DNA of 64,000 nucleotides from Phyllobates terribilis (Eukaryota): positions 191,828,001-191,892,000 of the forward strand of contig NW_027362770.1 of NCBI RefSeq assembly GCF_046119375.1. The letters run 5' to 3'. Under the pieces are notes generated by a model that searched no databases, was not told the DNA's origin, and was given only the letters and a program-made list of their open reading frames with translations. Within the stretch, counting starts at the first letter, position 1; the number at the start of each line of letters is the position of its first letter. This document shows positions 21,417 through 60,161 of the stretch, in pieces. The translations under genes were made by a program, and so were the position numbers.

Positions 21417-22714
21417 GGTTGGAGGCGGAGCGGCGGTGTAGCCTGAGTGGAGCTCAAGGGTGCTCGAAAATGTTGCCAGTATTGGGCCCTGAAATTCCTG
21501 GTGGCAGTCCTTCCCGTCCTCCACCCTTAATTCATCATTTTCTGTCCCCCGTCCCCTACCTTCAATACCTCATTTGCTGTCACCTGTCCCCCCCTTCAAT
21601 ACATCGTTTGCTTTACCCTGACCCCCAACCTTATTTCATCATTTACTGTCCACATCCCCCACCCTCAATTCATCATTTGCTTTCCTCCACCCCCAATTCA
21701 TCATTATCTGTGCCACCCACCTCAATACATCATTATTTACTGTTCACCGTCCCTCACCCACAATGCATCATTATTTGCTTACAATTACAATTAGTTAATT
21801 GTATTTAAAAAAAAATGCCATACTTACCTCTCATACGATCCCTTGCAGCTCCACTTTTGGACTGGTAGCCTGGCACGTGTACATGCCGTCGGCTATGCGA
21901 TGACTTCATCATTTAGGCGCCGTCACCAGCGTGTAGTGAGCTGGCCGGCTCTGGCTGTTCTGTGATAATTGATATAGAGCCTGTTACAGAAGTGATTACA
22001 CAGAATGATGTTGCCACCTTGTGGCCAGAGGTTGCACCTGCGCAGGGTGTGATGACAGAGAAAAAGACTGAGCCTCCTGTGTCCCGCCCTAGAGAGTCAC
22101 GTGACCAAAGTGGGAAGCAGGAAAAAGCGCGCGAAGAGTCTCCTGTGGTCTGTGAAAAGAGCCAGGACGGTGTGCAGGCCCTCGTGTGTGGAGCAGGAGA
22201 GACTCTCAACGTGATTTCTTCTATCTAACACCATATCCTCGGAGCCTTCCCCAGCTTCTGCACTGCTGAAGGATACAGCTATTACACTCCCTGCTACTGG
22301 AGTGTGGACTACATAAGGGGACCCACCAGAGCTTCTATCCGGATCAGAGAGACTGTAAGCGGGACCTCTGGCGAGAGGCCGAAGTATCCCTTCCTTTCTT
22401 TCCGCGAATTCTGCTGTTCCTGTTTTTTTTTCGGCTGGGACGCCCTCCTGCAAAGACAGACAGGCCTGCGACGGGGGACACATCCTTCTGGTGTAAAGGA
22501 CTGGTAACGTGTGAGTAGGGACAGTGAGGGTCAGCTTATCAGTACACGTTATTACTGTGCATATTTACGGTTGTCATTTATTGTTTTCTTTCTTTGCTGT
22601 GTTAAAAATGTATACGAGTAAAGATACGGTTATCAAGATAGAGTCTGTGTGTGGGGGTCTTGCTGGGCCAGATCATAGATACCAATGCGCGGCCTTGCCC
22701 GCGGTCACTTCATC

Positions 22715-26600: not shown

Positions 26601-27664
26601 TCCAGACTATTAAGACGTCGAGGCCCCTCGAGCTGTTGATGGTGGACTATCTGTTGATCGGAACGGCGAATAGTGGCTACCAGTACTGTCTGGTGATGGT
26701 GGACCACTTCACGAAATTCGCTGTCGCTGTTGCTACCAAGGATCAGACTGCTGAATCAGCTGCACAGGCTATCTGTCAGCAATTCGTTCGGGTCTACGGG
26801 TGTGATCAGGGGGCTTGTTTCGAAGGGCGAGTCATTGAAGAACTCCAACGGATGTATGGAATCAAGAAGTCCAGGACCACCCCTTACCATCCACAAGGGA
26901 ATGGCGCGTGTGAACGCTTTAACCGGACCCTCTTACAACTGATCCGGACTTTGGCTGAAGACAAAAAGCCCGACTGGCCTCGATTCCTCCCGGAACTGCT
27001 GTGGGCCTATAATAATCAGGTCCATTCCGTCACCGGATACACTCCATACACCCTTCTCTTTGGCCGTCCAGGCAAAGACATCCATGAGTTGCAACTGTCT
27101 AGCTCCGAAGAAGATACCTGTGGTACCTATCCTTCTTGGCTACAAACACACCGCCAGAGAATGGAGACTGTCTACCGGCTAGTAGGCCGACAAATTCAGG
27201 ATCAAGTGCACGCTGACCCACTTCCGGTACAAGAAGACCCACTGAATGTAGGTCTACTGGTCCTAGTCCGAATAAAGAAGCCGCAAGGGAAACTCTGGCC
27301 CAAGTGGGAGACCGAAGTCTATCGAGTAATTGGACAGCCGTACCCCGGTGGCCCCGTCTATCGAGTGCAGGGCGAAGACAGCGGCAGCATCCGAATTTTG
27401 CACCGTAATATGTTGCGCCCCTGCCGTTCCCAGCCTGACTCCCCTACTGTGATACCTAGAGAGATGGATATCACTAATACTGTCGGAGACACTGACCCCG
27501 GGGATGTAGAGACTGAATGCATGCCTACCCCTGTCCGTCGGACTGACTCACTTGAACCGATTACCTCCTCTACTGACATGTCGACTGGGAAAGAGAGTGG
27601 GGTGACTGATAGGAGAGAGGGGATCCAACCCGTTAGGCGGACAACGAGGACCACTGCAGGGGTA
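23681..27664 (+). pseudogene. pol: Pol of element 1 (PR-RT-RH-IN), inactivated
   Basis: Protease DTR instead of DTG; in-frame TAA 24833-24835; YLDD; TDAS; HHCC; about 6 codons missing before integrase DQG relative to element 2; interrupted by element 2. Confidence 0.9.
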
Positions 27665-29119
27665 TGTGACACCCCAGGGGTCTGGTTGCCACAGTGATAG
27701 AGATATTACGTCTGAGAGCAGGTGGGAGGTCTCTTGGTCAGGGATCCTATGCATGCCACACCTCCTGCCCAGTCCTGGGAGGAGAAGAACTTCCCCTATA
27801 TAAACCTAGGGCTGAGGCAGGGTTAGTGAGTAGAGAAGAAGTAGAGACAGAGAAGCAGATATAGGAAAAGAACATCAGGAGCTCTGTGGGAGCAGTGCTA
27901 CAAGGAGTCAGGGGCTGGCAGCTGCAGAGCTCGCCCTGACTGAGAAGTTATCACCGGACCCGGAGTCCGAGGCTGTGGGGACTAATCTTTACCCAGCAGC
28001 AGAAACCGCCCGGCAGGGGATTTCAGGTCCTCTGGCCAAGAAACCCGAAGGCACGGTCACACGCGTGGGACCAGCACCGCCGTCGTGGAGCGGACGCCAC
28101 TAGAAGGCCCCGAGTCACCGGCCATACGGGTGAGCACCACACGGTACACTCAGGGACGTGGGCTACTTATACCCGCCTCTAGCAAGGTAGCCAGAAGAGT
28201 ACAGTCAGTTTGGGAGGCCTACAACTCCGCCTGGCCAGGGGAGATCCCATCTGCTCAAGGACTGACCAGGCCCCGATCGCTAGCCAGTACTCCGGGAGGG
28301 TCTATCTTTATCACCAGTAAAGACCCTGAACTACACCGCATCGTCTCTGAGTGATTCCTGCTACCCCCATCATCCACGTCGGCTGCGCTGAGGCCATACC
28401 CCTCCCGTTGGGGGTGATACTATCACGCTGCACAATCCTACCACCGGCCTCAGCGGTCTGCTCTGCAGCGGCAGCTCCTTCGCTGCATTCAACGGGTGGC
28501 GTAGTCGTCCAACATCTACCGCTAATACATCGCCGCTCAGTTTGACTCCCTGGGCACGGACCGGGTCACCGCCACGAGACTACGACCCTCAACAGATCCG
28601 GCTCCGGGTAAGCTCCCGTGCGCGCGACGCCGCGCGACGAAGGCCCAGGGGTGCGTCAACTTTTGGCGTAGTCGGCAGGATCTCGTGCCCGCAACCACCG
28701 GGTACTGCGTGCCTGAAAAAGACTGTTCAAACTTACCAGTGGTGAAGATTCCCGCCATCCGTGGAGGTTTCCCGCCATCCGGCGTCATCTTCTACCTTCT
28801 TCCCGCCATCCGCGAAGTTTTCCCGCCATCCGGCGCCATCTTCTGCCTTCTTCCCGCCATCCGTGGAGTTTTCCCGCCGTTGGACGCCATCTTGAAGACG
28901 CCGCGCGGGAAGAAGAGCGGCGTGGACTCCGAAAGCGCGCGAGAACTGAAGCCCCGCCTCACGTCCGGACGTTGCGTAAGGTCCTGGAAGGAGCCCAGCA
29001 GACGCCGACGTCACAGGAGCGCGACGGAAGGTCCTCAACCCTGACGATCCACTGCGGAGCCGCGGCCTACGGAAGAGGATCATCGCAAGGTAGGCCACGG
29101 TCCACTAGGGGGGAGGAAG

Positions 29120-34212: not shown

Positions 34213-37200
34213 AGTGTTTAAATTGTTTTATTTGTGGTCACCTGTCTGTTACTTGTAAATAATTATGTGTTTCTAGTTATTTTTAGGAGTCCTTGGTGGA
34301 TTTACCGGGAATCCTTGTACAATTAGTTGGAGCGTAACCCAGGATGGACTAAAAGACTGTTAAGGACTCGGGGCAGGACAGACCCCTACCTGGTTACGTC
34401 TCCCTGTTTTGGTGAAATGGACACCTTTGTTTTCTTCAAAGACTGCACCCGGTTGCGGACATGCCGTGACCATCCTAATGTCTTTCTTTATTGTACTGTT
34501 TTTGTTTATACCTTGTTATGTTTTTCTAAAAATATGTTTAGTCCCGGAGTACTAAATTTCACTAGGGGGGAATGTGACACCCCAGGGGTCTGGTTGCCAC
34601 AGTGATAGAGATATTACGTCTGAGAGCAGGTGGGAGGTCTCTTGGTCAGGGATCCTATGCATGCCACACCTCCTGCCCAGTCCTGGGAGGGGAAGAACTT
34701 CCCCTATATAAACCTAGGGCTGAGGCAGGGTTAGTGAGTAGAGAAGAAGTAGAGACAGAGAAGCAGATATAGGAAAAGAACATCAGGAGCTCTGTGGGAG
34801 CAGTGCTACAAGGAGTCAGGGGCTGGCAGCTGCAGAGCTCGCCCTGACTGAGAAGTTATCACCGGACCCGGAGTCCGAGGCTGTGGGGACTAATCTTTAC
34901 CCAGCATCAGAAACCGCCCGGCAGGGGATTTCAGGTCCTCTGGCCAAGAAACCCGAAGGCACGGTCACACGCGTGGGACCAGCACCGCCGTCGTGGAGCG
35001 GACGCCACTAGAAGGCCCCGAGTCACCGGCCATACGGGTGAGCACCACACGGTACACTCAGGGACGTGGGTTACTTATGCCCGCCTCTAGCAAGGTAGCC
35101 AGAAGAGTACAGTCAGTTTGGGAGGCCTACAACTCCGCCTGGCCAGGGGAGATCCCATCTGCTCAAGGACTGACCAGGCCCCGATCGCTAGCCAGTACTC
35201 CGGGAGGGTCTATCTTTATCACCAGTAAAGACCCTGAACTACACCGCATCGTCTCTGAGTGATTCCTGCTACCCCCATCATCCACGTCGGCTGCCCTGAG
35301 GCCATACCCCTCCCGTTGGGGGTGATACTATCACGCTGCACAATCCTACCACCGGCCTCAGCAGTCTGCCCTGCAGCGGCAGCTCCTTCGCTGCATTCAA
35401 CGGGTGGCGTAGTCGTCCAACATCTACCGCTAATACATCGCCGCTCAGTTTGACTCCCTGGGCACGGACCGGGTCACCGCCACGAGACTACGACCCTCAA
35501 CAGATCCGGCTCCGGGTAAGCTCCCGTGCGCGCGACGCCGCGCGACGAAGGCCCAGGGGTGCGTCAGGTACCTCCAGGACAGTCCTACAGAGACCAATAT
35601 GTGTGGCCCTCTTCCCAGCCGCCCCCTGTCACATCCACAGCCATCGCCGCCCTGGAGCCGGTTGTTGGCAGGGACTGCCAACCTTTGATTGGGGGGGCGT
35701 GTAGTGAGCTGGCCGGCTCTGGCTGTTCTGTGATAATTGATATAGAGCCTGTTACAGAAGTGATTACACAGGATGATGTTGCCACCTTGTGGCCAGAGGT
35801 TGCACCTGCGCAGGGTGTGATGACAGAGAAAAAGTATGAGCCTCCTGTGTCCCGCCCTAGAGAGTCACGTGTCCAAAGTGGGAAGCAGGAAAAAGCGCGC
35901 GAAGAGTCTCCTGTGGTCTGTGAAAAGAGCCAGGACGGTGTGCAGGCCCTCGTGTGTGGCGCAGGAGAGACTCTCAACGTGATTTCTTCTATCTAACACC
36001 ATATCCTCGGAGCCTTCCCCAGCTTCTGCACTGCTGAAGGATACAGCTATTACACTCCCTGCTACTGGAGTGTGGACTACATAAGGGGACCCACCAGAGC
36101 TTCTATCCGGATCAGAGAGACTGTAAGCGGGACCTCTGGCGAGAGGCCGAAGTATCCCTTCCTTTCTTTCCGCGAATTCTGCTGTTCCTGTTTTTTTTTC
36201 GGCTGGGACGCCCTCCTGCAAAGACAGACAGGCCTGCGACGGGGGACACATCCTTCTGGAGTAAAGGACTGGTAACGTGTGTAACGGGTCTGGGAGGCGG
36301 AACCTCTGGGCTACTATACAAGGGAGCGGTCCTTGTAAGGGAGCGGGTGGCGACCAGGCAGGCAGTCACAGCATGTGACCGGGACAGTCTCTGGGTGTAC
36401 GGGCAGGAGGTCACGGCAAGTGATCAGGGCAGTCTCTGGAAGAACGGGCTGGAGGTCACGGCAAGTGACCGGGGCAGTCTCTGGAAGAACGGGCTGGAGG
36501 TCACGGCAAGTGACCGGGGCAGTCTCTAGGTAAGGGGTAGGTACGACCTGTGATGGCTGAACCTCCAGGTAGGCTAGCAAGGCAGATGGAGGATGTGTGC
36601 TCCCAGGTGAGCAAGCGAGAGTCTCTGGAATAGCAGGTGGTCACAGCACGTGACGGCGGAGCCTCCAGGTAGGCAAGCAGGCAGGTAGCGGAGAAGCGCT
36701 CCCAGGTGAGCGGGCAAGAGTCTGGAATAGCTGGTGGTCACAGCACGTGACAGCGGAGCCTCCGGGCAGGCAAGCAGGCAGGTAGCGGAGAAGCGCTCCC
36801 AGGTGAGCGGGCAAGCTGGTCCATAGACAGACTGACCGGAGTTGTAAGGCAGACCGTCGGACCTCAGGCAAGCAGGCAGGTAGCTGATGTGCGCTCCCAG
36901 GTGAGCGGGCAAGTTGGTCCTTAGACAGACTGACCGGAGTTGTAAGGCAGACCGTCGGACCTCAGGCAGGCAGGCAGGTAACAGGAAATCAGGCAGGATT
37001 AGGACAGCAAGCTGGCAGGAATCTGGCAGGTAACTGGCAGGTAACTGGCAACGGGACCTGAGGGCTGAAGCAGAGTAGAACGGTGCAACAACATTGCTCG
37101 GGCACCTCCATTTTGGAGGAGGTGCCTTATATATGGTAAAGTCCTCCGGCCATTGGCCGGGGACTCCTTAGGACGGCGCGCGCGGCCCCTTTAAGAGGGA

Positions 37201-37342
37201 GGGAGGGCGCGCGCGCGCGCCCTAAGCACAGTGGCCGGGAAGGAGCGCGCGCTGCCAGCAGAGCGGGAGAGGGACGCCGGGCACGGAGCAGAGCGGTGAG
37301 GGGAACAGCGTCCCTGCCTAGCAGAGGGCAGGGACGCCGGCA

Positions 37343-40300
37343 CTACAGTACCCCCCCTTTAGGCCCCCCCTTTTTTAGGCCAGATAGAAATTTAGCTAGG
37401 ATGAGAGGGGCATGGATGTTCTCCCGGGGCTCCCACGTTCTCTCCTCAGGACCAAACCCCTTCCAATCTACCAGAAAAAAGGTCTTTCCTCTTACCCTTT
37501 TGGTGGCAAGAATGTTCTCTACCTCAAACTCGTCCTCAGCAGAAACCGGAGCAGGAGGCGTACCTGTAGACTTGGAAAAAGAGTTAAGCACCACGGGTTT
37601 GAGGAGAGATACATGGAAGGAGTTAGGGATCCGTAAGTTGGCCGGGAGTTTCAATTTATAGGCCACCGGGTTGATCTGACTGATGACCTCCAGAGGACCG
37701 ATGAACCGAGGCCCTAACTTGTAAGAAGGTATCTTGAGTCGAACATATTTAGATGAGAGCCAGACTTTATCTCCTGGACGAAATTGTGGAGGATCCAGGC
37801 GTTTTTTGTCAGCGTGTCTTTTCATACGCTCGGATGACAGAAGGAGTGCGGACCGGGTACTCTCCCATATGGAGGAAAATTTGCTAACGAGAGATTCCGC
37901 AGCCGGGTTGTCCACAGAGGTGGAGACAGGAAAAGGAATCTGAGGATGCTGACCAAAGACTACAAAAAACGGGGATTTGGAGGAGGATTCGCTCTCGTGA
38001 TTATTATAAGAGAACTCGGCCCATGGTAGGAGATCCACCCAGTCAGAATGGTGGGCATTAACGAAGTGCCGGAGGTAACTGGTCAGGTTCTGATTGATCC
38101 GCTCCACTTGACCATTGGACTGTGGGTGGTAAGCGGAAGAGAAGTCCAGGGTGACGTCTAGTAGTTTACAAGTGGCTCTCCAGAAACGTGAGGTGAACTG
38201 TACCCCACGATCCGACACGATGTGGAGGGGCAGGCCATGAAGACGGAAGATGTGGCGGATAAAGTCTTTAGCCAGCTCGGGTGCAGACGGAAGGCCTGGC
38301 AGGGGAATAAAGTGAGCCATCTTGGAAAAGCGGTCAGCGACCACCCAAATGACCGTACAACCGGCAGAGACGGGGAGATCAGTTATAAAGTCCATTGCTA
38401 TATGCTGCCAGGGGGCAGCAGGTACAGGAAGCGGAAGGAGGCGTCCGGCTGGCAGATGTCTCGGGACTTTGTTGCGGGCGCAGGACACACAGGCAGAAAC
38501 AAAGTCTATTATGTCCTTGTGCAGGGTAGGCCACCAATAGTGCCGGGCAATAAGCTGGAGGGTTTTTTTCTGACCGGCGTGGCCAGCTAGTTTAGACGAA
38601 TGGCCCCAGTGTAGGATCTTCTCCCGATCAGGTACTGAAACAAACGTCGTACCGGGAGGGAGACGATTTAGACTCACGGGAGCCACCTGCATTACTCTGG
38701 CGGGATCGATGATATGTTTAGGTTCTTCCTCGAGATCGGACACCAGAAAGGATCGGGACAAGGCGTCTGCTTTGACGTTTTTGTCAGCCGGGCGAAAATG
38801 AAGAACAAAATCAAAGCGAGCAAAAAACAAGGACCACCGGGCTTGGCGCGGGTTAAGTCTCTGGGCATGCTGGAGGTAAGCCAAGTTCTTGTGGTCAGTG
38901 TAAATTATTACCGGATGAAGAGCCCCCTCGAGTAGGTAACGCCACTCCTCCAACGCCAGCTTGATGGCCAATAACTCTCGGTCTCCTATGGAATAGTTGC
39001 GCTCAGAAGAGGAGAAGAGTTTGGAGAAGAAGCCACAAGTTACCATTCTCCCGGAAGATGATTTTTGAGTAAGTACCGCTCCGGCTCCAGAGGAGGAGGC
39101 ATCAACTTCCAGGAAGAACTGCTTGTTGCCGTCCGGGCGATGCAGCACCGGGGCGGAAGAGAAGGCCTGTTTTAGGGAAAGAAAGGCCTCCTCTGCTTCG
39201 GGCGGCCACTCTTTGGGATTAGTACCCTTACGGGTGAGCGCGGAAATTGGGGCAGTCCGGGAAGAGAAGTGCGGGATGAAGAGGCGGTAATAGTTGGCGA
39301 AGCCCAGGAACCGTTGAATAGCCTTCAACCCCTCTGGTCGGGGCCATTTCTCGATGGCAGACAGTTTCTCAGGATCCATTTGTAGTCCGGTCTGAGAGAT
39401 AATGTAGCCCAGAAACGGAAGCGAGGTCTGCTCAAAGAGGCACTTCTCATATTTAGCGTAGAGATGGTTCTGCCTGAGCCTGAGCAGGACCTGACGAACA
39501 TCCCTCCGGTGAGTCTGGAGATCCGGAGAGAAGACCAAGATGTCGTCCAGGTACACCACTACGCAGGAGTAGAGAAGGTCCCGGAAGATGTCATTGACCA
39601 ACTCTTGAAAGACGGCAGGAGCGTTACAGAGGCCAAAGGGCATTACCAGATATTCATAGTGGCCGTCCCGGGTGTTGAATGCCGTCTTCCATTCATCCCC
39701 CTGACGGATACGAACCAGGTTGTACGCCCCACGGAGGTCCAGTTTGGTGAAGATTCTAGCCCCCCTCAGACGATCAAATAACTCCGGAATGAGCGGAAGG
39801 GGGTACTTATTCTTCACCGTGATCTGGTTAAGGCCTCTATAGTCTATACAGGGACGGAGAGAGCCGTCCTTCTTTTTGACGAAAAAGAAGCCTGCTCCCG
39901 CCGGGGAGGTAGATTTCCGGATGAATCCCCTGGCCAGATTCTCCTCAATATATTCGGACATCGACCGGGTCTCAGCAGCGGATAATGGATAAATACGCCC
40001 ACGGGGAGGAGAATTACCAGGTAACAGGTCGATAGGGCAGTCGTATGGTCTATGAGGGGGTAGTGTCTCTGCCTCCTTTTTATTAAAGACATCAGCATAA
40101 GACCAATAAGGAATCGGAAGTCCAGGTAGATTAGCTGGGGTAGGAGAAGGACGGACGGGATGAACGGGAACCAGACAGGTCTTATGGCAGCCCTGTCCCC
40201 AGCGAAGGACTTCTCCGGTCTGCCAGTCAAGAACGGGTGCATGTTTCTGGAGCCAAGGTAGGCCTAGCAAGAGGGCGTGAGAGAGTCCAGGCAGAACATG

Positions 40301-40615
40301 GAAGGAGATACTTTCAGAATGCAGCATTCCCACCTGCAGAGTAATGGATTCGGTGATGAGTTGGATGGGGCGTGGTAAGAGCCCCCCATCCACGGCAGCA
40401 ACAGACAAGGGTACAGCCAGAGGTTTGGTGGGGATGCGGTATTTCTCTACCAGGGACTGTGAAATAAGATTCCCGGCTGCTCCAGAGTCCAGTTGGGCTA
40501 GTTCGAAATAACGGTTCTCCCCGTAGACGATTGAAACTGACAACAGCAGGGATGGAGAGGATTTATTCTTGTCTAGGTGGACCTCTCTGAGCGAACCTAG
40601 ACACAGGCGTTTCCC
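37343..40615 (-). CDS. pol: Pol of element 3 (PR-RT-RH-IN-chromodomain)
   Basis: LDSGA, YLDD, DASS, HHCC, DDE, GPY/F, chromodomain FEVENIL...FLVDWKGFGPEERTWEP; frame open from the GGGAAAC slip site; stop lies in the first bases of the 3' LTR. Confidence 0.93.
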   Translation of the reverse strand, partial: GKRLCLGSLREVHLDKNKSSPSLLLSVSIVYGENRYFELAQLDSGAAGNLISQSLVEKYRIPTKPLAVPLSVAAVDGGLLPRPIQLITESITLQVGMLHSESISFHVLPGLSHALLLGLPWLQKHAPVLDWQTGEVLRWGQGCHKTCLVPVHPVRPSPTPANLPGLPIPYWSYADVFNKKEAETLPPHRPYDCPIDLLPGNSPPRGRIYPLSAAETRSMSEYIEENLARGFIRKSTSPAGAGFFFVKKKDGSLRPCIDYRGLNQITVKNKYPLPLIPELFDRLRGARIFTKLDLRGAYNLVRIRQGDEWKTAFNTRDGHYEYLVMPFGLCNAPAVFQELVNDIFRDLLYSCVVVYLDDILVFSPDLQTHRRDVRQVLLRLRQNHLYAKYEKCLFEQTSLPFLGYIISQTGLQMDPEKLSAIEKWPRPEGLKAIQRFLGFANYYRLFIPHFSSRTAPISALTRKGTNPKEWPPEAEEAFLSLKQAFSSAPVLHRPDGNKQFFLEVDASSSGAGAVLTQKSSSGRMVTCGFFSKLFSSSERNYSIGDRELLAIKLALEEWRYLLEGALHPVIIYTDHKNLAYLQHAQRLNPRQARWSLFFARFDFVLHFRPADKNVKADALSRSFLVSDLEEEPKHIIDPARVMQVAPVSLNRLPPGTTFVSVPDREKILHWGHSSKLAGHAGQKKTLQLIARHYWWPTLHKDIIDFVSACVSCARNKVPRHLPAGRLLPLPVPAAPWQHIAMDFITDLPVSAGCTVIWVVADRFSKMAHFIPLPGLPSAPELAKDFIRHIFRLHGLPLHIVSDRGVQFTSRFWRATCKLLDVTLDFSSAYHPQSNGQVERINQNLTSYLRHFVNAHHSDWVDLLPWAEFSYNNHESESSSKSPFFVVFGQHPQIPFPVSTSVDNPAAESLVSKFSSIWESTRSALLLSSERMKRHADKKRLDPPQFRPGDKVWLSSKYVRLKIPSYKLGPRFIGPLEVISQINPVAYKLKLPANLRIPNSFHVSLLKPVVLNSFSKSTGTPPAPVSAEDEFEVENILATKRVRGKTFFLVDWKGFGPEERTWEPRENIHAPLILAKFLSGLKKGGPKGGVL

Positions 40616-41547
40616 GACCTCTCCGGGCAGGCACGGATCCGGTGCTCCTTACTGCCACAGTAGAAGCAGGTCCCCTCGGCACGGCGTAAGTCCTGACGGG
40701 TCTTGACCATCTTGGTCTGGTCGACCTGCATAGGCTCAGGAGGGTGTACCTGGTTAGAGACAGAAGGAGTGACGGGTTTCTGAAAAGTAGGAGCTAGACG
40801 TGGTAACCTCCTCTCACGGGTGACCTCTCTGGCACGCTCCTGGAACCGTAGGTCAATCCGGGTGGCAAGAGTTATTAAGTCATCGTGAGTGGTAGGAATG
40901 TCCCGACCGGCAAGTTCATCTTTAATACGGCCGGACAGACCCTCCCAGAAGACGGAAACCAGAGCGTCGTTATTCCAGGCCAGCTCCGAGGCAAGGGTAC
41001 GGAACCGTATGGCATATTGGCCCACGGTGAGACTTTCCTGACGGAGGCGTAGCAACGATGATGCGGATGAGGTCTTCCGTCCGGGTTCGTCGAAGACTTT
41101 CCGGAAAGCCGTGAGAAAAGCAGGCAAGTTGGACACCAGGGGGTCTCCTCTCTCCCATAGAGGATGTAGCCAGGCCAGGGCCTCCCCGGTGAGATGGGAC
41201 ATGATGAATGCAATTTTGGCTCGGTCGGAGTTAAACTGGTGGGACAATAGTTCAAAGTACAGGGTGCACTGATTTATGAAGCCCCGAGCCTGGGCTGAGT
41301 CGCCTCCGAAGCGAAGAGGTGCAGAAAGCCGAGGTCCGGGGTAGGATATCATGGTGTTAGTGGACAGCGGAGCTGCCGGATTGCGAGACATGGCACTGGC
41401 GGAGGTTGTTGGTGGAACAGTCAGAGTGTCCAGGCGAGTATTGACATTCCGCAGGTGACCCAGGATGGACTCCTGTTGGGACCTTTGACGGGACAGTTCA
41501 TGACACAGGTCCGAGAGCAAGGGAGCTTGGGTGCCACCGGGTTCCAT
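40597..41547 (-). CDS. gag: Gag of element 3 (PEG10/RTL-like)
   Basis: 316 aa; PLRFGGD..ARGFINQC, AKIAFIMSHLTGEALAW, CCHC knuckle CFYCGSKEHRIRAC. Confidence 0.92.
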   Translation of the reverse strand: MEPGGTQAPLLSDLCHELSRQRSQQESILGHLRNVNTRLDTLTVPPTTSASAMSRNPAAPLSTNTMISYPGPRLSAPLRFGGDSAQARGFINQCTLYFELLSHQFNSDRAKIAFIMSHLTGEALAWLHPLWERGDPLVSNLPAFLTAFRKVFDEPGRKTSSASSLLRLRQESLTVGQYAIRFRTLASELAWNNDALVSVFWEGLSGRIKDELAGRDIPTTHDDLITLATRIDLRFQERAREVTRERRLPRLAPTFQKPVTPSVSNQVHPPEPMQVDQTKMVKTRQDLRRAEGTCFYCGSKEHRIRACPERSGNACV

Positions 41548-43057
41548 GGCCCGAGCAAACTGTAACGGGTCTGGGAGGCGGAACCTCTGGGCTACTATAC
41601 AAGGGAGCGGTCCTTGTAAGGGAGCGGGTGGCGACCAGGCAGGCAGTCACAGCAGGTGACCGGGACAGTCTCTGGGTGTACGGGCAGGAGGTCACGGCAA
41701 GTGATCAGGGCAGTCTCTGGAAGAACGGGCTGGAGGTCACGGCAAGTGACCGGGGCAGTCTCTGGAAGAACGGGCTGGAGGTCACGGCAAGTGACCGGGG
41801 CAGTCTCTAGGTAAGGGGTAGGTACGACCTGTGATGGCTGAACCTCCAGGTAGGCTAGCAAGGCAGATGGAGGATGTGTGCTCCCAGGTGAGCAAGCGAG
41901 AGTCTCTGGAATAGCAGGTGGTCACAGCACGTGACGGCGGAGCCTCCAGGTAGGCAAGCAGGCAGGTAGCGGAGAAGCGCTCCCAGGTGAGCGGGCAAGA
42001 GTCTGGAATAGCTGGTGGTCACAGCACGTGACAGCGGAGCCTCCGGGCAGGCAAGCAGGCAGGTAGCGGAGAAGCGCTCCCAGGTGAGCGGGCAAGCTGG
42101 TCCATAGACAGACTGACCGGAGTTGTAAGGCAGACCGTCGGACCTCAGGCAAGCAGGCAGGTAGCTGATGTGCGCTCCCAGGTGAGCGGGCAAGTTGGTC
42201 CTTAGACAGACTGACCGGAGTTGTAAGGCAGACCGTCGGACCTCAGGCAGGCAGGCAGGTAACAGGAAATCAGGCAGGATTAGGACAGCAAGCTGGCAGG
42301 AATCTGGCAGGTAACTGGCAGGTAACTGGCAACGGGACCTGAGGGCTGAAGCAGAGTAGAACGGTGCAACAACATTGCTCGGGCACCTCCATTTTGGAGG
42401 AGGTGCCTTATATATGGTAAAGTCCTCCGGCCATTGGCCGGGGACTCCTTAGGACGGCGCGCGCGGCCCCTTTAAGAGGGAGGGAGGGCGCGCGCGCGCG
42501 CGCCCTAAGCACAATGGCCGGGAAGGAGCGCGCGCTGCCAGCAGAGCGGGAGAGGGACGCCGGGCACGGAGCAGAGCGGTGAGGGGAACAGCGTCCCTGC
42601 CTAGCAGAGGGCAGGGACGCCGGCACTACAACGTGTGAGTAGGGACAGTGAGGGTCAGCTTATCAGTACACGTTATTACTGTGCATATTTACGGTTGTCA
42701 TTTATTGTTTTCTTTCTTTGCTGTGTTAAAAATGTATACGAGTAAAGATACGGTTATCAAGATAGAGTCTGTGTGTGGGGGTCTTGCTGGGCCAGATCAT
42801 AGATACCAATGCGCGGCCTTGCCCGCGGTCACTTCAAGCGCATCACAGAAGTGGCGGAGGGAGGTCCCCCGGGGTCCGGTGAGCAGAGGCAAAAGAGCGG
42901 GGTCCTGGACCCCCACTCTTTTCTTCTGCTCACCAGACCCCATGCACCAGCAAGGCCAGTAATGTCCTCATAGCTAGGGGTTTGGGTCAGGAGGGGCGAA
43001 ACTTCCGAGTGGGCCCCTCCAGGTAATCCTGATTACAGCTATGGTGGCGCACCCTAA

Positions 43058-43257
43058 GGCCACGGCCCCACTATCAGTGGTCAGTATTTTTTCTCAGGAG
43101 TGGGAGCCAAAACCAGGAGTGGATGATAAATGCAGAATTGTTGCACTTGTTTCTATTATATCTTTTATCTGATTGTTCCTCATCTGGTTTTATCTTCCAC
43201 TCCTGAGAAAAAATACTGACTGAATACTGACCAAATACTGATAGTGGGGCCATGGCC
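43058..43257. mobile_element. PIF/Harbinger-like MITE (200 bp)
   Basis: TIRs GGCCACGGCCCCACTATCAG / CTGATAGTGGGGCCATGGCC; TAA on both sides. Confidence 0.8.
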
Positions 43258-44207
43258 TAATAGTGGATGTAGGAGAACCTCAGCAGATGACAGTGCTTTT
43301 ACTAAAAGAAATCTCTATACAAAGACCAACAATGATATTACCATGATATAGTGACCATATAGTGGTAGATACCAGTCCTGTAGAAAATGTAAGAGATCAC
43401 AGTACAGTTATAGATGGTGACTTGCAGATGACCTTCTTTCTGGTGGAGTCATTCACTTTTCCCATCTTTTCCATCTGGCCCAGACCGACATGGCAACCTC
43501 TTCCAGCCAAGACTCGGCTGCAAAGATTACAACAAAGATACATATGACTTCTCACATTTCAGGCACAATTATCCCCAACCTGCACAAACGCCTTATCCTG
43601 CTGATACCCCAATACTGATCGGCTGCTGCCATATGTGTCCCCGTTACTGCACGTACTGTGCGCCCTCTAATTTTGTTCCTACTGGAGCCTTAGATTCCCC
43701 TTTCATTGCATTGGTAAAATATATGGCCCTACTGTACCCCTCACTGTAGTGATGCCAACTGTGACCCCCACCACCTCTCCATACAGCAGGAGGGACCCCA
43801 CACAAACCTTCATACTGTATAATTGCATCCTTTAGCCCATACAGCATATTGCACCCCATAGCCCATATAGTATAATGCACCCATATAGTATAATGCACCC
43901 CCATGTAGTATAATTCATTAAGTATTATGCACCCCCATTCAGTATAATGCACCCCCATATAGTATAATGCATCCCCATATAGTATAATGCATCCCCATAT
44001 AGTATAATGCAGATCATGTCTCCTTGCTCTGCCGCAGAGTTTAACTGTATCGGCGCAGGCTGATAGAGTTAAACATAACGTAGCTCCGGGTGGGCCCTTC
44101 AGAGTGCGGGGGCCCGGGGCTGCCGCACCCACTGCCACCCCCCAGTAGCTACGCTAATGGGCGGGACACAAACAGCCATAGCTCTGAAGGAGATGTGGTT
44201 GGTGGCC

Positions 44208-44432
44208 TTATGTGCCCTTGGACAAGGTGTGCTTGGCCAGCTCTCCGGGCAGCAGCAGGCGCACAGCGGTCTGGATCTCTCGGGGGGTGATGGTGGAGCG
44301 CTTGTTGGAGTGAGCCAGGCGGGGGGCTTCCCCTGTGATGTGCTCAAAGATGTCATTGATGAAGGAATTCATGATGCCCATGGCCTTGGAGGAGATGTCG
44401 GGGTGGACCTGCTTCAGCACCTTGTACACATA
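44208..44432 (-). pseudogene. H2B: Histone H2B pseudogene, paralog of 6709-6933
   Basis: [31 protein letters not shown]...[14 protein letters not shown]. Confidence 0.92.
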
Positions 44433-44840
44433 TAGATTACAGTTTGCCAAAAAACACATTGACTGGACTAAAGATAAGTGGCGCAACATTCTATTTACAC
44501 ATGAGAGCAAGATTGTTTTGTACTGGGTCTAAAGGCCGTAGACAGTTTGAGAGATGACCCAAACACTAAATTCAAGCCACGGTACACTGTGAAGACTGTA
44601 AAACATGGAGATGCAACCAGACTGGTTTGGGGATGTTTCTCATACTGTGGCGTTGGGCCCATTTATCGCATACCAGGCACTATGTACCAGTTTGAATATA
44701 TCAAAATACTGGAAGAGATCATGTTGCCTTATGCTGAATGGGAAATGCCCTTGAAATGGGAGTTTCAGCAGGACAACGACCTCATGCATACCAGAAAGCG
44801 GGCAACATCCTGGTTCCACACCAACAAGATTGATGTTAGG
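44433..44840 (+). pseudogene. Tc1 transposase fragment, paralog of 6934-7345
   Basis: Same junction and the same TVKHG/WGCF/QQDND motifs. Confidence 0.87.
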
Positions 44841-45053
44841 TTTTGTATCAAAAACAGCATAACATAAGAATGCAAAAGAACTGTGGAAAGTAGTGCAGTC
44901 AGCCTGGATCAGATGTTAGTGACTCCATGCCACACAGATGTAAAGCTGTTATCAGAAATAAAGGCTATACAACTAAATATTAGTTCAGTTATTAACAAAA
45001 AAGTGAAGTCTGGAAACAAATTTAAAATATGAGTTTGTAAATGAAAAGGCAGG

Positions 45054-46356
45054 TGTGGCGCCCCTGAGGGTTCGACCGCCACAGGGATGCTGCATTTCTT
45101 CAATGGAGTGTGGTGTTCCTCCTCTGAGGTAAGAACAGTGCGATGATCAGGACTCCACCTCCACATCCAACACCACATTTCTCCACCAGAGGGGGATAGA
45201 ACGCACTAGGTGCTGCCCTCCTGGTTACAGGGAGACTGGGGAACCAAGAGTTAGGGGAACCATTTAGTGGGTGAGGGTGGAGGACTCACATTTTAGTGAC
45301 AATTAATATTTCATATTTAATACACAGCCATCTTGGCTCTTGGTTCGTTCTTTGACTGTCTTATGATCGTGATCTCCCACCCTGAGCGTGGATCCTGTGT
45401 GGACCTGCAGTGGATGAAGTCACAGCCCTCGTACCCTGGCCTTGGGTCGAGGGGCTGGTTGCAGATAATGAATGTCTCAGCCCGGTCAAGGACCATGACC
45501 AAGAAGGCCCGGAGCTTAGGAGTGTAGCTCCACTGCAAATGGATCCCGGGAGGATGCAGACGGAGCGGTATACGCCACCTGTCCTCGCTGTTCTGATATA
45601 TTCAGAGGGATTCCGGCTGCAAGAGGGGTACCGGCCCCCGACACCTGACCTTGCTACTCCATGTCCTGGTCGGGAAAGCCCGGTAGGCCCTGAGGATCCC
45701 ACCGGGTATCGGAAAGAGCGGAGCTGCCACTGGTGCCCTTTTTCTGAGAGGAGTTCAGAGGGAGACCAGGCGTATCTACACACACACACCGACAGGAAAG
45801 AACCCGGTCTGTAGTTTAGGAACACTCTGGTGCGGGGTCCTGATTGAACACTGGACTTACTCGGAGGTTGTTGGACCCCCTTCGTACCTGGTGACCGCAG
45901 AACTCCACGAGGAGCAGGGAGTCGCCTTCCTATTGCCATCTCTTATGTGAGTAAAGCCTTGGAAGTTCACCCCTATGGCCTCCGGACTCTTTATTCTGCA
46001 CTACACCGCACAATGCGGCGCCAGACCACCTGGACTACAAACCCCCTCTATCCTGTCCCTCTGCCCTGAGGCCTTACTCCGCCTGTGGGGAGTAGTAACA
46101 ACGTTGGCTGCCATAACACCAGGCCTCAGCGGACTGCAGCAGCGCTGGTGGCCCTTCACCAGGTGCCACATGTGGCGTAGTCGAGATCAGCCACTCAACC
46201 TGGATAAGCCCATACCATTCTTTTTAATGTGACGGCCCTGGGCACGGAGCGGGTCCGGGCCACGGCTGCACCCCATCTCTCAATCACAAGGACCCGACTC
46301 CGAGTCCCCCATCTCCCAGGGTAAAGAAAAAAGGGCTTTCGGGTAGAGGCGTCACA
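45054..46356. mobile_element. Solo LTR (1303 bp)
   Basis: TGTGGCGCC...GGCGTCACA ends; TSD CAGG; empty site AAGGCAGGCATT at about 7549-7560. Confidence 0.88.
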
Positions 46357-46964
46357 CAGGCATTATTTTCATTTTAAAAATTGACATCTTGTTCATGTTT
46401 TCATTTGGAATTGAGTGTATAGCTCTCAATGACTCTATATATGGAAAGAAATGCTATGAGGATTCAGCTTTTTCACAATTGTTTTAAACACACTGTGTAT
46501 ACAGTTATCTGCAAAATAATTGCAATGGAAATTTCTGCTTATTAACACAGGTTTATACAGACAGGTAAACTAAGGAATTGCAAGTATTCAGGGTGGTCCT
46601 GACAGCACAATGGAGATGGCCTGCAGCCATGCAGAGGACAGAACTTGTTCTTCAAGGTTGGGGGATACATGGACAATAATCTATGCACATGGTTAATTCA
46701 GGGAACAAGATGGAAGATTTGAAAGACAAAATAGTTTCCTTCGTAATGCCGTTCATCTAGTGCTATATACCCATCTGCTTCCCACACCCATACTGTATAC
46801 CTTCAGTAGAGTGCTGTATAATCCTCATATGCTGTTCTGCCCCAAACTGTGCAGGATACCTCCACATACTGCTGTATACGGCCACATGATGTGCTTTACC
46901 CTCAAAATAGTACTGTATACCCCAAAAAGTATCATATACCACCACATAGTGCTGAATAAATCAC

Positions 46965-48666
46965 CGGGCAGGGACGAATCAGGTGCTCCTTACTACCACA
47001 GTAGAAACAGCTCCCCTCGGCTCGGCGTGTCTCTTGGCGAGATTTGACCATCTTGGTCTGGTCGATCTACATAGGTTCGGGCGAGCGTGCCCGGGGAGTT
47101 GCAGGTTGGGAAGCAGGTTTTTGGAAAGCAAGAGCAAGACGAGGAAATCTTCTCTCCCGGGTAGTCTCCTTAGCACGTTCTAGGAAACGGATGTCAATCT
47201 GGGTTGCTAGTGACACCAGGTCATCCAGGGTGGTAGGAACGTCCCGGTCGGCTAACTCGTCCTTAATCCGACCGGAAAGGCCCTCCCAGAAGGTTGGACA
47301 CCAGGGCCTCGTTGTCCCAGGCAAGCTCAGAAGCGAGGGTACGGAACCGTATGGCATACTGGGCCACGGTGAGACATGATGAACGCCACCTTGGCCCGGT
47401 CGGAGGGAAACTGATGTGGCTGAAGTTCAAAGTGCAGCGTGCACTGGTTCAGAAAGCCCCGACATAGGACGGGGTCACCTCCAAAACGAGGAGGCGCAGA
47501 AAGCCGGGTTCCTAGGCTGGATGCCGTGGTATTGGTAGGTAGTGGCGCTGCCGGAGCGGGTGTCGCTCGACTTGAGGCAGACACAGGTGGGACAGACAGC
47601 GTGTCCAGGCGAGAGATGACAGACCGCAGGTAGGTCAGGATGGTTTCCTGTTGGGATCTCTGACGAGAAACCTCCTGGTACAGGTCAGCAAGCAAAGGGG
47701 TCTCAGGGCCACCGGGTTCCATGGCCCGTGCAAACTGTTACGGATCCGGGTGGTGGAACCTCTGTGCTGCGGTGCAAGGAGGGACCAGGGGGGCGCAGCT
47801 AGGTATCAACTCGGACCGACCAAGGTCGTACGGCGGCTCAATCAACTCCGTGAACAGGGAAGGACGAAGCAGAGGGACCAGGTGCTACTCTGGGGACTGA
47901 CCTTGTATGAGAGCAGGTGACTCCCACGCGTCAGAAGGCAGGGACTGACCGGTACAGCAGATGAGCATGGCAGGCAGGCTGACGGGTGATCCGGGCAGAC
48001 GGACTGGCAGGCACGGCAGGTAACAGGCAGGTGATTGTAGGTAAGCGAGCTGGCAGGCACGGCAGGTAACAGGCAGGAGCCTCCAGGTAGGCTGACTGGT
48101 AGGCACGGTAGGTAACAGGCAGGTGCTTCCAGGTAAGCGGGCTGGCAAAGCCCATAGACAGACTGGCGGACTGGACTGTAGACGGACTGCCGGGCTGGAG
48201 AGAGTAGGCCAGGCTGGCGGATTGGACTTGTAGTCAGGCTGGTGGATTGGACTTGTAGTCAGGCTGGCGAACTGGAATTGTAGTCAGGCTGGCGGACTGG
48301 ACTTGTAGTCAGGCTGGCGGGCTGGACTTGTAGTCTGGTTGGTGGGCTTGACTGGTAGTCAGGCTAGCAGCGGGACCTGAGGGCTGAAGCTGAGGATAAC
48401 ACACAAAGCTACAACCTGCACGGGCACCTCCATATTGGAGGAGGTGCCTTTTATAGGGGAAGTCCTGCGGCCATTGGCCGGGGACTTTTTAGGACGGCGC
48501 GCGCGGCCCCTTTACGAAGGAGGGAGCACGTGCCCTACGCACAGAGCCGTGGAGGCTGCGTGCACCAGCAGCAGCTGTAGGGAGGACAAAAAACGCCGGA
48601 GCAGGGCCGCGGCGGTAAGGGGGACGGCGTCTCTGCCGGGCCGGAGTCAGAGACGCCGATGCTACA
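46965..48666 (-). mobile_element. gag: Truncated chromovirus element 4: 5' LTR (47736-48666) plus broken gag
   Basis: MEPGGPETPLL...CRGFLNQC homologous to element 3 gag; frameshifted; cut just after the CCHC knuckle at 46965. Confidence 0.88.
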
Positions 48667-51617: not shown

Positions 51618-52816
51618 TGTAACGGGTCTGGGAGGCGGAACCTCTGAGCTACTATACAAGGGGGCGGTCCTTGTAAGGGAGCGGGTGGCGACCAGGGAAG
51701 ACGGGCAGGAAGTCACAGCAGGTGACCGGGACAGTCTCTGAGTGAACGGGCTGGAGGTCACGGCAAGTGACCGGGGCAGTCTCTGGATGAACGGGCAGAT
51801 GGTCACGGCAAGTGACCGGGGCAGTCTCTGGATGAACGGGCAGATGGTCACGGCAAGTGACCGGGGCAGTCTCTGAATGAACGGGCAGATGGTCACGGTA
51901 AGTGACCGGGGCAGTCTCTGGGTAAAGGGTTGGTACGACCTGTGGCGGCTGATGATAGACGTGAGCTCCCAGGTGAGCAGGCGAGAGTCTCTGGATGAAC
52001 GGGTGGTCACAGCATGTGACGGCGGAGCCTCCAGGAAGACCAACAGACAGGCGGCAGATGAGCGCTCCCAGGTGAGCGGGCAGGAGTCTCTGGACAGGCG
52101 GGTGGTCACAGCACGTGACGGCAGAGCCTCCAGGTAGGCTAGCAGACAGGCAGCAGATGAGGGCTCCCAGGTGAGCGGGCAGGAGTCACTGGACAGGCAG
52201 GTGGTCACAGCACATGACGGCGGAGCCTCCAGGTAGGCTAGCAGGCAGGTAGCAGATGTGTGCTCCCAGGTGAGCAGGCAAGCTGGTCCATAGACAGACT
52301 GACAGGAGTTGGAAGGCAGACCGTCGGACCTCAGGCAAGCAGGCAGGTGGCTGAAGTGCGCTCCCAGGTGAGCGGACAGGCTGGTCCTTAGACAGACTGA
52401 CAGGAGTAGTAAGGCAGACCGTCGGACCTCAGACTAGCAGGCAGGTAGCAGATAATCAGGCAGGAATAAGACAGCAAGCTGGCAGGAATCTGGCAGGTAT
52501 CTGGCAGGTAACTGGCAACGGGACCTGAGGGCTGAAGCAGAGTAGTGAACAGTGCAACAACATTGCTCGGGCACCTCCATTTTGGAGGAGGTGCCTTATA
52601 TATGGTGAAGTCCTCCGGCCATCGGCCGGGGACTCCTTAGGACGGCGCGCGCGGCCCCTTTAAGAGGGAGGGAGAGCGCGCGCGCGCGCCCTAAGCACAG
52701 TGGCCGGGAAGGAGCGCGCGCTGCCAGCAGAGCGGGAGGAGGACGCCGGGCACGGAGCAGAGAGGTGAGGGGAACAGCGTCCCTGCCTAGCAGAGGGCAG
52801 GGAGGCCGGCGCTACA
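51618..52816 (-). mobile_element. Solo LTR of the element 3 family
   Basis: TGTAACGGGTCTGGGAGGCGG...CTACA; TSD CACGT at 51613-51617 and 52817-52821; extra internal repeats. Confidence 0.93.
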
Positions 52817-55171: not shown

Positions 55172-56284
55172 CAGGGCCGGCGTCAGCACCCGGCGTACCC
55201 GGGCAAGTGCCGGGGCCCTGGAAAATCAGAGGGGCCCACCGCCCACTCACTGTTGGGGCCCACCGCCCACTCACTTTCGGGGCCCTGGTCGCTTCCTCGG
55301 CACCTGTTCAGGGACGCAGGCGCTGCTTGAATGCCTGCACTCCCCCCAGACATGGCAGCGCGCTGTGCGACTGTGTCTGCTAGTAATGACGCTGCAGGGT
55401 CGACGGCACTGCACCTTTAATTGTGCTTGTATGTCGCCCCTGCCGCGTCTTTACTAGCGGACACAACCGCACAGCGCGCGGCCATGTCTGGGGGGAGTGC
55501 CGGCAATCAAACACCGTCGGAGGTCCTGCACAGATGGGGGGGAGCGGCCCGGACCCGACCGCAAGTGGGCCCCTCTGATGGTCCAGGGCCATGATGTCTG
55601 TGACACGCCGGGGGCCCTGCACTGCCCCATACCTGAGGAGCTGCTGGACAGGACATTGGACCGGGGACAGGTGAGTGAGGCTTCCCCAATCCCCATATTA
55701 AAAATATTTGTAATGGGTCTGTGTGAGTGCATGTATGTGAATGTCAGTGTGTATGACTGTGTATATATATTTGTCTGTTTTATATATGTCTTTAAGAATT
55801 TGTGTAAAAATGTGTGTATGTCTGTATGTGTACATATCTGTGTACCATGTGTGCTTGCATGTGACTGTGTACCGTGTGTGCGTGCGTGTGACTGTGTACC
55901 GTGTGTGCGTGCGCATGTCTGCGTACCATGTCTGCGTATCGTGTGTGCGTGTGCATGTCTGCGTACCGTGTGTGCGTGCGCATGTCTGCGTACCGTGTGT
56001 GCGTACGCATGTCTGCGTACCGTGTGTGCGTGCGCATGTCTGCGTACCGTGTGTGCGTGCGCATGTCTGCGTACCGCGTGTGCGTGCATGTGTCTGCGTA
56101 CGCATGTCTGCGTACCGTGTGTGTGCGCATGTCTGCATATGTGAAGGATGAGGTGGCAGGCTGGGCCCTGTGTACTATATATATATTTCTCCCCCGTATC
56201 TGTGCATCATGAATCGTGTATGTGTTAAAAGGGCCCACTGTGACTCTATTGCCCGGGGCCCAGAAAAACCTGGAGCCGGCCCTG
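55172..56284 (+). mobile_element. hAT MITE (1113 bp) inside the satellite, with (CA/GT)-rich internal repeats
   Basis: TIRs CAGGGCCGGC / GCCGGCCCTG; 8-bp TSD CTTCCAAG. Confidence 0.92.
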
Positions 56285-59048: not shown

Positions 59049-60161
59049 CAGGGCCGGCGTCAGCACCCGGCGTACCCGGGCAAGTGCCGGGGCCCTGGAA
59101 AATCAGAGGGGCCCACCGCCCACTCACTGTTGGGGCCCACCGCCCACTCACTTTCGGGGCCCTGGTCGCTTCCTCGGCACCTGTTCAGGGACGCAGGGGC
59201 TGCTTGAATGCCTGCACTCCCCCCAGACATGGCAGCGCGCTGTGCGACTGTGTCTGCTAGTAATGACGCGGCAGGGTCGACGGCACTGCACCTTTAATTG
59301 TGCTTGTATGTCGCCCCTGCCGCGTCTTTACTAGCGGACACAACCGCACAGCGCGCGGCCATGTCTGGGGGGAGTGCCGGCAATGAAACACCGTCGGAGG
59401 TCCTGCACAGATGGGGGGGAGCGGCCCGGACCCGACCGCAAGTGGGCCCCTCTGATGGTCCAGGGCCATGATGTCTGTGACACGCCGGGGGCCCTGCACT
59501 GCCCCATACCTGAGGAGCTGCTGGACAGGACATTGGACCGGGGACAGGTGAGTGAGGCTTCCCCAATCCCCATATTAAAAATATTTGTAATGGGTCTGTG
59601 TGAGTGCATGTATGTGAATGTCAGTGTGTATGACTGTGTATATATATTTGTCTGTTTTATATATGTCTTTAAGAATTTGTGTAAAAATGTGTGTATGTCT
59701 GTATGTGTACATATCTGTGTACCATGTGTGCTTGCATGTGACTGTGTACCGTGTGTGCGTGCGTGTGACTGTGTACCGTGTGTGCGTGCGCATGTCTGCG
59801 TACCATGTCTGCGTATCGTGTGTGCGTGTGCATGTCTGCATACCGTGTGTGCGTGCGCATGTCTGCGTACCGTGTGTGCGTACGCATGTCTGCGTACCGT
59901 GTGTGCGTGCGCATGTCTGCGTACCGTGTGTGCGTGCGCATGTCTGCGTACCGCGTGTGCGTGCATGTGTCTGCGTACGCATGTCTGCGTACCGTGTGTG
60001 TGCGCATGTCTGCATATGTGAAGGATGAGGTGGCAGGCTGGGCCCTGTGTACTATATATATATTTCTCCCCCGTATCTGTGCATCATGAATCGTGTATGT
60101 GTTAAAAGGGCCCACTGTGACTCTATTGCCCGGGGCCCAGAAAAACCTGGAGCCGGCCCTG
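59049..60161 (+). mobile_element. Second copy of the same MITE insertion
   Basis: Same length, TSD and flanking monomers; offset 3877 bp; a few SNPs. Confidence 0.92.

What the first reader, a model, noticed from the sequence alone, without database searches (positions are those of the whole stretch)
41549..48455. tRNA-free self-priming with a compensatory base change between two elements
Element 3 has no TGG-type PBS. Two nt after its 5' LTR the minus strand reads TTGCTCGGGC (41558-41549). Exactly 30 nt downstream of the first T of TATATAA (42414) the LTR reads GCCCGAGCAA (42384-42375), its perfect complement. In diverged element 4 both sites changed together: PBS TTGCACGGGC (47733-47724) and 5' end GCCCGTGCAG (48425-48416), again 30 nt from TATAAAA (48455), with a terminal G-U pair. 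The covariation supports Tf1-style self-priming, where the RNA 5' end anneals to the PBS and is cut by RNase H. The mechanism is established for fission yeast Tf1; here it is inferred in a seemingly intact vertebrate element.
Basis: partly seen in the sequence, partly recalled or inferred. Interest (0 to 1): 0.7.

Follow-up and report, generated by a model that had tools for sequence, protein, structure and literature searches.

The report
Self-priming frog chromovirus retrotransposon family
A very abundant frog jumping gene has no tRNA docking site; the ten letters where DNA copying would start pair with the predicted first ten letters of its own RNA, and related families keep this pairing with different letters, so it likely primes itself, as shown for yeast Tf1 and already proposed in print for its vertebrate relatives.

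Summary
All four 10-mers lie where stated. Element 3 is a young chromodomain-bearing Ty3/gypsy element that groups with frog, fish and fungal elements. About 21,000 LTR-PBS junctions of its clade exist in the genome. I extended the two-element comparison: with the primer located without using the PBS, the varying pair stayed complementary in 27 of 27 copies, and seven different perfect primer/PBS states occur across subfamilies; shuffled PBSs gave 0 perfect matches in 580. A second stem, U5 with the gag start codon region, is also kept. Corrections: element 4's terminal G-U comes from a one-base deletion absent from its nearest relatives; the 30-nt TATA spacing is shared ancestry; element 4 is a broken fragment. 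The RNA start and RNase H cleavage were not shown, and the third Tf1 stem was not found. Self-priming is already described for vertebrate Tf1/sushi elements (PMC6317226; bioRxiv 2022.12.06.519325, citing Butler 2001), and this scan noted the signature before on other DNA. Verdict: new member of a known kind, with good covariation evidence.

The parts
41561..42630 (-). Element 3 5' LTR (1070 nt, TG...CA)
   Evidence: 1066 identities, 2 mismatches and one 2-nt gap against the 3' LTR
42408..42414 (-). Element 3 TATA box TATATAA
42382..42407 (-). 9-bp inverted repeat between TATA box and primer; its 3' arm includes the first 3 primer bases
   Evidence: confined to the A/B/C clade, no compensatory changes seen
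42375..42384 (-). Element 3 predicted self-primer GCCCGAGCAA (predicted RNA positions 1-10)
   Evidence: TG at -1/+1 in 76 of 80 copies; start not mapped
41579..41585 (-). U5 arm GGTTCCG of the second stem
41549..41558 (-). Element 3 primer-binding site TTGCTCGGGC; its last bases are part of the gag start context GCCATGG
41540..41546 (-). Leader arm TGGAACC of the second stem, overlapping the gag ATG (41547-41545)
40597..41547 (-). gag, 316 codons plus stop; Retrotrans_gag / Ty3 capsid and a CCHC knuckle
40609..40615 (-). GGGAAAC heptamer in the gag/pol overlap, likely -1 frameshift site
   Evidence: role inferred
37343..40648 (-). pol: protease, RT, RNase H, integrase, SH3_Tf2-1, chromodomain
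37351..37360 (-). Polypurine tract
36280..37347 (-). Element 3 3' LTR (1068 nt), with the second copy of the primer sequence at 37103-37094; flanked by target duplication CACGT
47736..48666 (-). Element 4 5' LTR; about 73-74% identical to element 3's LTR over the U3-promoter part only
48416..48425 (-). Element 4 primer site GCCCGTGCAG (one A missing relative to nearest relatives)
47754..47760 (-). Element 4 U5 arm GGTTCCA
47724..47733 (-). Element 4 primer-binding site TTGCACGGGC
46965..47722 (-). Element 4 gag remnant with internal deletion and frame change; no pol
51618..52816 (-). Solo LTR of element 3's subfamily, primer sequence at 52572-52563, no PBS behind it, target duplication ACGTG

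Best explanation
Elements 3 and 4 are frog chromodomain-type Ty3/gypsy retrotransposons whose primer-binding site is complementary to a 10-mer 30 nt behind their own TATA box, so they likely start reverse transcription with the 5' end of their own RNA instead of a tRNA. Steps: (1, inferred) Pol II starts at the G 30 nt after the TATA box. (2, shown as conserved complementarity) RNA bases 1-10, sometimes 11, pair with the PBS two bases behind the LTR. (3, shown as conserved complementarity) a U5 heptamer pairs with the bases at and behind the gag AUG, crossing the first duplex. (4, inferred from Tf1) the element's RNase H would cut behind the primer to give the 3'-OH for minus-strand synthesis. 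(5, inferred) because the primer would be copied into the plus-strand PBS, a change in the LTR 10-mer can be written into the PBS, which explains how the two sites stay in step.
For: No TGG PBS, whereas elements 1 and 2 of the same window have one. Primer located by an anchor that ignores the PBS: position 6 pairs with PBS position 5 in 27 of 27 copies not selected on that position (14 T-A, 13 A-T). Seven distinct 10-of-10 states, each matching itself best (cross-matches 3-9 of 10). Distant relatives: 13 of 29 have at least 9 Watson-Crick matches and 6 of 29 have 10, against 19 and 0 of 580 shuffles; 13 of the 14 best-scoring sites lie 23-34 nt behind a TATA-like word (background 6.7%). 0 of 19 tRNA-type PBS controls have such a match. 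Second stem in 60 of 64 and 8 of 16 copies against 6 of 1109 and 0 of 170 background windows, with a T-A to G-C change between clades. RT-RNase H tree places element 3 with frog, fish and fungal elements. Tf1 precedent.
Against: RNA start not mapped and no cDNA intermediate seen. The third duplex of the Tf1 'pretzel' was not found next to the primer (top-10% rank in 2 of 64 and 0 of 16 copies). Folding gives the primer duplex only 0.57 probability in element 3, 0.38 in element 4 and 0 in two of the 13 copies folded (the program cannot form the crossing stems). 15 of 29 distant hits had no good complement and I did not resolve why. Among 37 copies picked for a changed PBS position 5, only 3 were truly compensated; I read the rest as post-insertion mutations. 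Copies share ancestry, so counts of copies are not counts of events.
Confidence: 0.86

Rival explanations
1. The same 10-mer primes, but not as in Tf1: it comes from another RNA molecule of the particle or from the 3' LTR copy, or it is released by a host nuclease.
For: The same sequence lies in the 3' LTR (37103-37094); the third Tf1 stem is missing; covariation cannot tell cis from trans.
Against: In the A/B/C clade the 3' copy is preceded by a hairpin that takes its first 3 bases, and adding 40 nt of U3 lowered the predicted duplex in all 6 such copies folded; the element encodes RNase H.
Confidence: 0.07
2. The duplex is real but serves translation control or packaging, and an unknown RNA primes.
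For: The duplex and the second stem enclose the gag start codon; U5-AUG pairing has such a role in HIV-1 (PMC5035962).
Against: The paired bases sit exactly at the PBS position in every subfamily, and no other PBS is present.
Confidence: 0.04
3. A tRNA or tRNA fragment primes and the LTR match is secondary.
For: The host tRNA set could not be tested: only tRNA-Lys(TTT) copies were retrieved.
Against: No TGG for the CCA end; at least seven PBS sequences would need as many different RNAs; best match to the 29 distinct Lys tRNAs was 6-7 of 10.
Confidence: 0.03

Closest known systems
[quoted passage not shown] 2001)
   Same: Chromodomain integrase, CCHC gag, gag/pol overlap with a likely -1 frameshift, LTR end matching the Sushi 3' motif CNTNACA (PMC3601003), no tRNA PBS, self-complementary PBS. 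The passages say self-priming was described for this group in vertebrates.
   Different: LTR start TGTAGTG does not fit the Sushi 5' motif TGTYANR. I could not read Butler 2001, so I cannot say whether covariation or a stem over the gag AUG was shown there.
Tf1/Tf2 of Schizosaccharomyces pombe; Tj1, Tosmo1-3, Tcry1
   Same: Self-primer at the predicted RNA 5' end pairing with the PBS behind the 5' LTR; a PBS-adjacent stem with LTR sequence.
   Different: Tf1 needs three duplexes and only two were found here; fission-yeast gags lack CCHC and use a single frame or stop read-through; only Tf1 has experimental proof; here the gag AUG lies one base behind the PBS.
HIV-1 U5-AUG interaction
   Same: U5 pairs with the gag start codon region (PMC5035962).
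   Different: HIV-1 is tRNA-primed and unrelated at this level; a working analogy only.

Membership tests
Tf1/sushi group chromovirus | Ty3/gypsy domain order PR-RT-RH-IN | tested here: met
Tf1/sushi group chromovirus | Chromodomain at the integrase C-terminus | tested here: met
   PF00385 E=3.9e-11 and PF24626 SH3_Tf2-1 E=3.5e-19
Tf1/sushi group chromovirus | RT phylogeny within the fungi/vertebrates cluster | tested here: met
   frog clade 100/98, frog+fish 100/99, with fungal elements 95/90, apart from the tRNA-primed rows. No named Tf1 or Sushi-ichi sequence was in the tree; 15 of 120 listed homologues were used.
Tf1/sushi group chromovirus | No tRNA-complementary PBS | tested here: met
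   No TGG behind the LTR; full tRNA set not available
Tf1/sushi group chromovirus | PBS complementary to an LTR segment at the predicted RNA start | tested here: met
Tf1/sushi group chromovirus | -1 frameshift between gag and pol (non-fission-yeast members) | tested here: inconclusive
   Overlapping frames with a GGGAAAC heptamer; frameshifting itself not shown
Tf1-type self-priming mechanism | Three-duplex 'pretzel' | tested here: inconclusive
   Central duplex and downstream stem found; upstream stem not found beside the primer; other partners were not excluded
Tf1-type self-priming mechanism | RNA 5' end coincides with primer base 1 | not testable with these tools
   Only assembled contigs were offered; TATA spacing and TG at -1/+1 fit
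Tf1-type self-priming mechanism | Cleavage behind the primer by the element's RNase H | not testable with these tools
   RNase H domain present; activity not tested

The most novel reading that the evidence does not exclude
In these frog elements the priming fold is also a translation switch: the self-primer duplex clamps the capped 5' end two bases from the gag AUG, a conserved U5 stem buries that AUG, and the PBS doubles as the start-codon context, so each RNA must choose between making Gag and priming, while the PBS is continually rewritten from the LTR by templated copying. With about 21,000 junctions in one genome this can be tested by observation alone.
Probability: 0.3. Interest if true: 0.55.

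Novelty: new member of a known kind. Interest (0 to 1): 0.27.

Why it matters
The mechanism is not new, but for vertebrate elements it rests on sequence inspection. This family gives unusually clean evolutionary support (eight of ten primer positions vary in step with the PBS) and is abundant enough that mapping RNA starts and native cDNA ends could confirm self-priming in a vertebrate. A tRNA-independent element would also escape silencing by tRNA 3' fragments (inference; background from the PMC7472051 abstract listing).

Tried and rejected
RNA evidence for the start site: no RNA holder listed; four runs laid were contigs only and show no start. tRNA comparison: the Rfam search returned only tRNA-Lys(TTT) in the 30 loci fetched; no tRNA gene in the window. 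PF03732 search for distant relatives: the 40 loci fetched were not relatives (plant-type, mostly TGG PBS) and served only as controls. Third pretzel stem beside the primer: not found. The U3 hairpin as a general feature: absent from the distant clade, no compensatory changes, and its conservation count (45 of 64 perfect) is inflated because it was the anchor. Element 4's G-U pair as a functional feature: rejected. Primary papers Butler 2001, Lin and Levin 1997 and 1998, Atwood-Moore 2006 were not held. Searches for chromovirus + self-priming + Xenopus, self-primer + retrotransposon + compensatory and sushi-ichi + primer binding site + tRNA + zebrafish returned nothing; pretzel + retrotransposon + primer returned one relevant paper. 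These blanks do not show absence from subscription journals. PMC4340606 was irrelevant.

Full report
Observation. Element 3 runs on the minus strand: 5' LTR 42630-41561, 3' LTR 37347-36280 (1066 identities, 2 mismatches, one 2-nt gap), target duplication CACGT. Two bases follow the LTR, then TTGCTCGGGC, one C, and the gag ATG. A perfect complement appeared in 3 of 5000 base-shuffled LTRs. Elements 1 and 2 in the same window have an ordinary TGG-type PBS, which makes a useful internal contrast.

Corrections. Element 4's terminal G-U pair comes from one missing A: its nearest relatives read GCCCGTGCAA and pair 10 of 10. The equal 30-nt spacing is inherited sequence, not a second observation. Element 4 is only a 5' LTR and a deleted gag; no pol or 3' LTR was found in the window.

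What the element is. Pfam finds gag (Retrotrans_gag, Ty3 capsid) and pol with protease, RT, RNase H, integrase, SH3_Tf2-1 and a chromodomain. Gag ends in a CCHC knuckle and overlaps pol at a GGGAAAC heptamer. The closest proteins carry frog labels (98-99% for the best, dendrobatid), then other frogs and fish at about 60-80%, then fungi and algae. In an RT-RNase H tree of 24 rows (15 of the 120 listed homologues, element 3, elements 1 and 2, six plant-type loci) element 3 sits in a frog clade (100/98), with fish (100/99) and with fungal elements (95/90). No named Tf1 or Sushi-ichi sequence was available for the tree. The family is huge: 20,976 exact LTR-PBS junction matches and 57,261 promoter-primer matches, controls 0.

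Covariation in the close clade. I examined 73 copies; 64 were usable and 9 lacked the anchor or junction. The primer was located by the sequence in front of it, blind to the PBS. In the 27 copies not selected for a change at PBS position 5, that position and primer position 6 were complementary in all 27 (14 T-A, 13 A-T). These were chosen by likeness to elements 3 or 4 or by PBS variant, never by primer. At primer position 4 the 27 gave 18 C-G, 5 T-A, 3 mismatches and 1 wobble. The T-A state marks a supported clade (99/97). In 37 copies selected for C or G at PBS position 5, only 3 were compensated (C-G; L006, L021, L023), 10 were wobbles, one apparent match was a register artefact and the rest were mismatched. 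I read these as post-insertion mutations: they are 41 hits beside about 21,000. Comparing the lists by eye over the first 8.65 Mb of C1, 28 of 30 junctions had a listed primer 0.6-1.1 kb upstream and 27 of the 28 paired 10 of 10; nearly all were the common subfamily, and both patterns fix most positions.

Covariation in distant relatives. A looser junction pattern gave 29 hits (control 4). Thirteen of 29 had at least 9 Watson-Crick matches upstream and 6 had 10, against 19 and 0 of 580 shuffled PBSs. Of the 14 sites scoring 9 or more, 13 lay 23-34 nt behind a TATA-like word (background 6.7%); that word list was drawn up after seeing the contexts. Fifteen hits had no good complement and were not resolved. 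Altogether seven perfect states were seen: GCCCGAGCAA (11 copies), GCCCGTGCAA (5), GCCTGTGCAA (5), GCCTGCGCAA (1), GCCTGAGCTT (4), GCCTGAACTT (1), GCTCGAATGT (1), each pairing 10 of 10 with its own PBS and 3-9 of 10 with the others. With the 9-of-10 copy L125, positions 3-10 all vary in step. Positions 1-2 do not vary among the perfect states, which fits their double role: position 1 is the predicted start purine (TG at -1/+1 in 76 of 80 copies) and the PBS end is part of the GCCATGG start context. None of 19 tRNA-type PBS controls had such a match.

Flanking structure. A heptamer 26-27 nt before the PBS pairs with the bases at and behind the gag ATG: 60 of 64 close copies and 8 of 16 distant ones, against 6 of 1109 and 0 of 170 background windows, with GGTTCCA:TGGAACC replaced by GGGTCCA:TGGACCC in the distant clade. 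That is one compensatory event; the leader side was fixed by my patterns, the U5 side was not. This stem crosses the primer duplex, as described for the Tf1 'pretzel'. A third stem beside the primer was not found. Folding from the predicted start gave a primer-duplex probability of 0.8 or more in 9 of 13 copies, 0.57 in element 3, 0.38 in element 4 and 0 in two; the program cannot form crossing stems. A 9-bp hairpin between TATA box and primer takes the first three primer bases when U3 is present, which would weaken the 3' LTR copy as a competitor, but it is limited to one clade.

Mechanism. Shown: position, complementarity and covariation of the primer duplex; conservation of the second stem. 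Inferred: the RNA start, RNase H cleavage, and priming. Also inferred: the covariation need not be two independent mutations. About half of Tf1 cDNA carries a PBS copied from the primer (PMC11042837, passage), so a change in the LTR 10-mer could be written into the PBS. That would happen only if the LTR segment is the primer, so the reading stands either way.

Comparison with what is known. PMC6317226 (passages) states that self-primers were described in the Tf1/sushi group from yeast and vertebrates. bioRxiv 2022.12.06.519325 (passages) calls self-priming a common feature of the group and describes the three-duplex structure. PMC4600332 (passages) says the mechanism has been implicated from fungi to vertebrates. 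PMC3601003 (passages) gives Sushi LTR end motifs; the 3' one fits and the 5' one does not. PMC2864245 (passages) adds background only. PMC5035962 (passages) describes the HIV-1 U5-AUG pairing. Butler 2001 and the Levin papers were not held and are known to me only through those citations; they may already show the second stem. The scan's notes list the same signature in ray, shark-like, other animal and moss genomes; I did not test them.

Verdict. Real and well supported, mechanism probability about 0.86, but a new member of a known kind. Interest 0.27. The boldest open reading is that the priming fold doubles as a switch over the gag start codon (probability 0.3, interest 0.55).

Noticed in passing
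window 21929-42836: Three nested LTR elements: element 1 (+, LTRs about 21929-22712 and 35697-42836) carries element 2 (LTRs 27659-28658 and 34567-35566, 99.2% identical) in its coding region and element 3 in its 3' LTR. No chromodomain hit in their pol frames; both have a TGG-type PBS.
   Followed up: partly
window 52720 to about 62000: Large 52-bp tandem array (over 160 units); a solo LTR of element 3's subfamily (51618-52816) is inserted in its end with a 5-bp target duplication.
   Followed up: partly
window 55294-55543 and 59171-59420: Two copies of a roughly 250-nt stretch with an internal 111-nt inverted repeat, inside the tandem array region.
   Followed up: no
window 47660-47800; G000 C10 180-192 Mb and C510: Element 4's junction occurs at 99-100% identity at seven other places, all on C10 nearby or on C510, which suggests segmental duplication of the broken copy rather than transposition.
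   Followed up: no
L061-L100 (G000 contigs C3343-C6948, 40-81 kb): Small contigs dense in plant-type LTR elements (Athila-like ends and PBS, label recalled; one with an initiator-Met-type PBS). Probably plant contamination in the assembly.
   Followed up: partly
L006, L021, L023, L009, L139: A small supported clade (98/90) holding a C-G pair at the position that is A-T or T-A elsewhere, together with a G-U intermediate and a T-A copy.
   Followed up: partly
window 41547-42384: The predicted 837-nt leader has 2 upstream ATGs against 6.5 expected from shuffles; 17 of 18 leaders counted had fewer than their shuffle mean. The shuffles kept base composition only.
   Followed up: partly
genome-wide: 57,261 exact matches to the promoter-primer pattern and 20,976 to the LTR-PBS junction pattern, 0 for the reversed controls: a very large, recent expansion.
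   Followed up: partly
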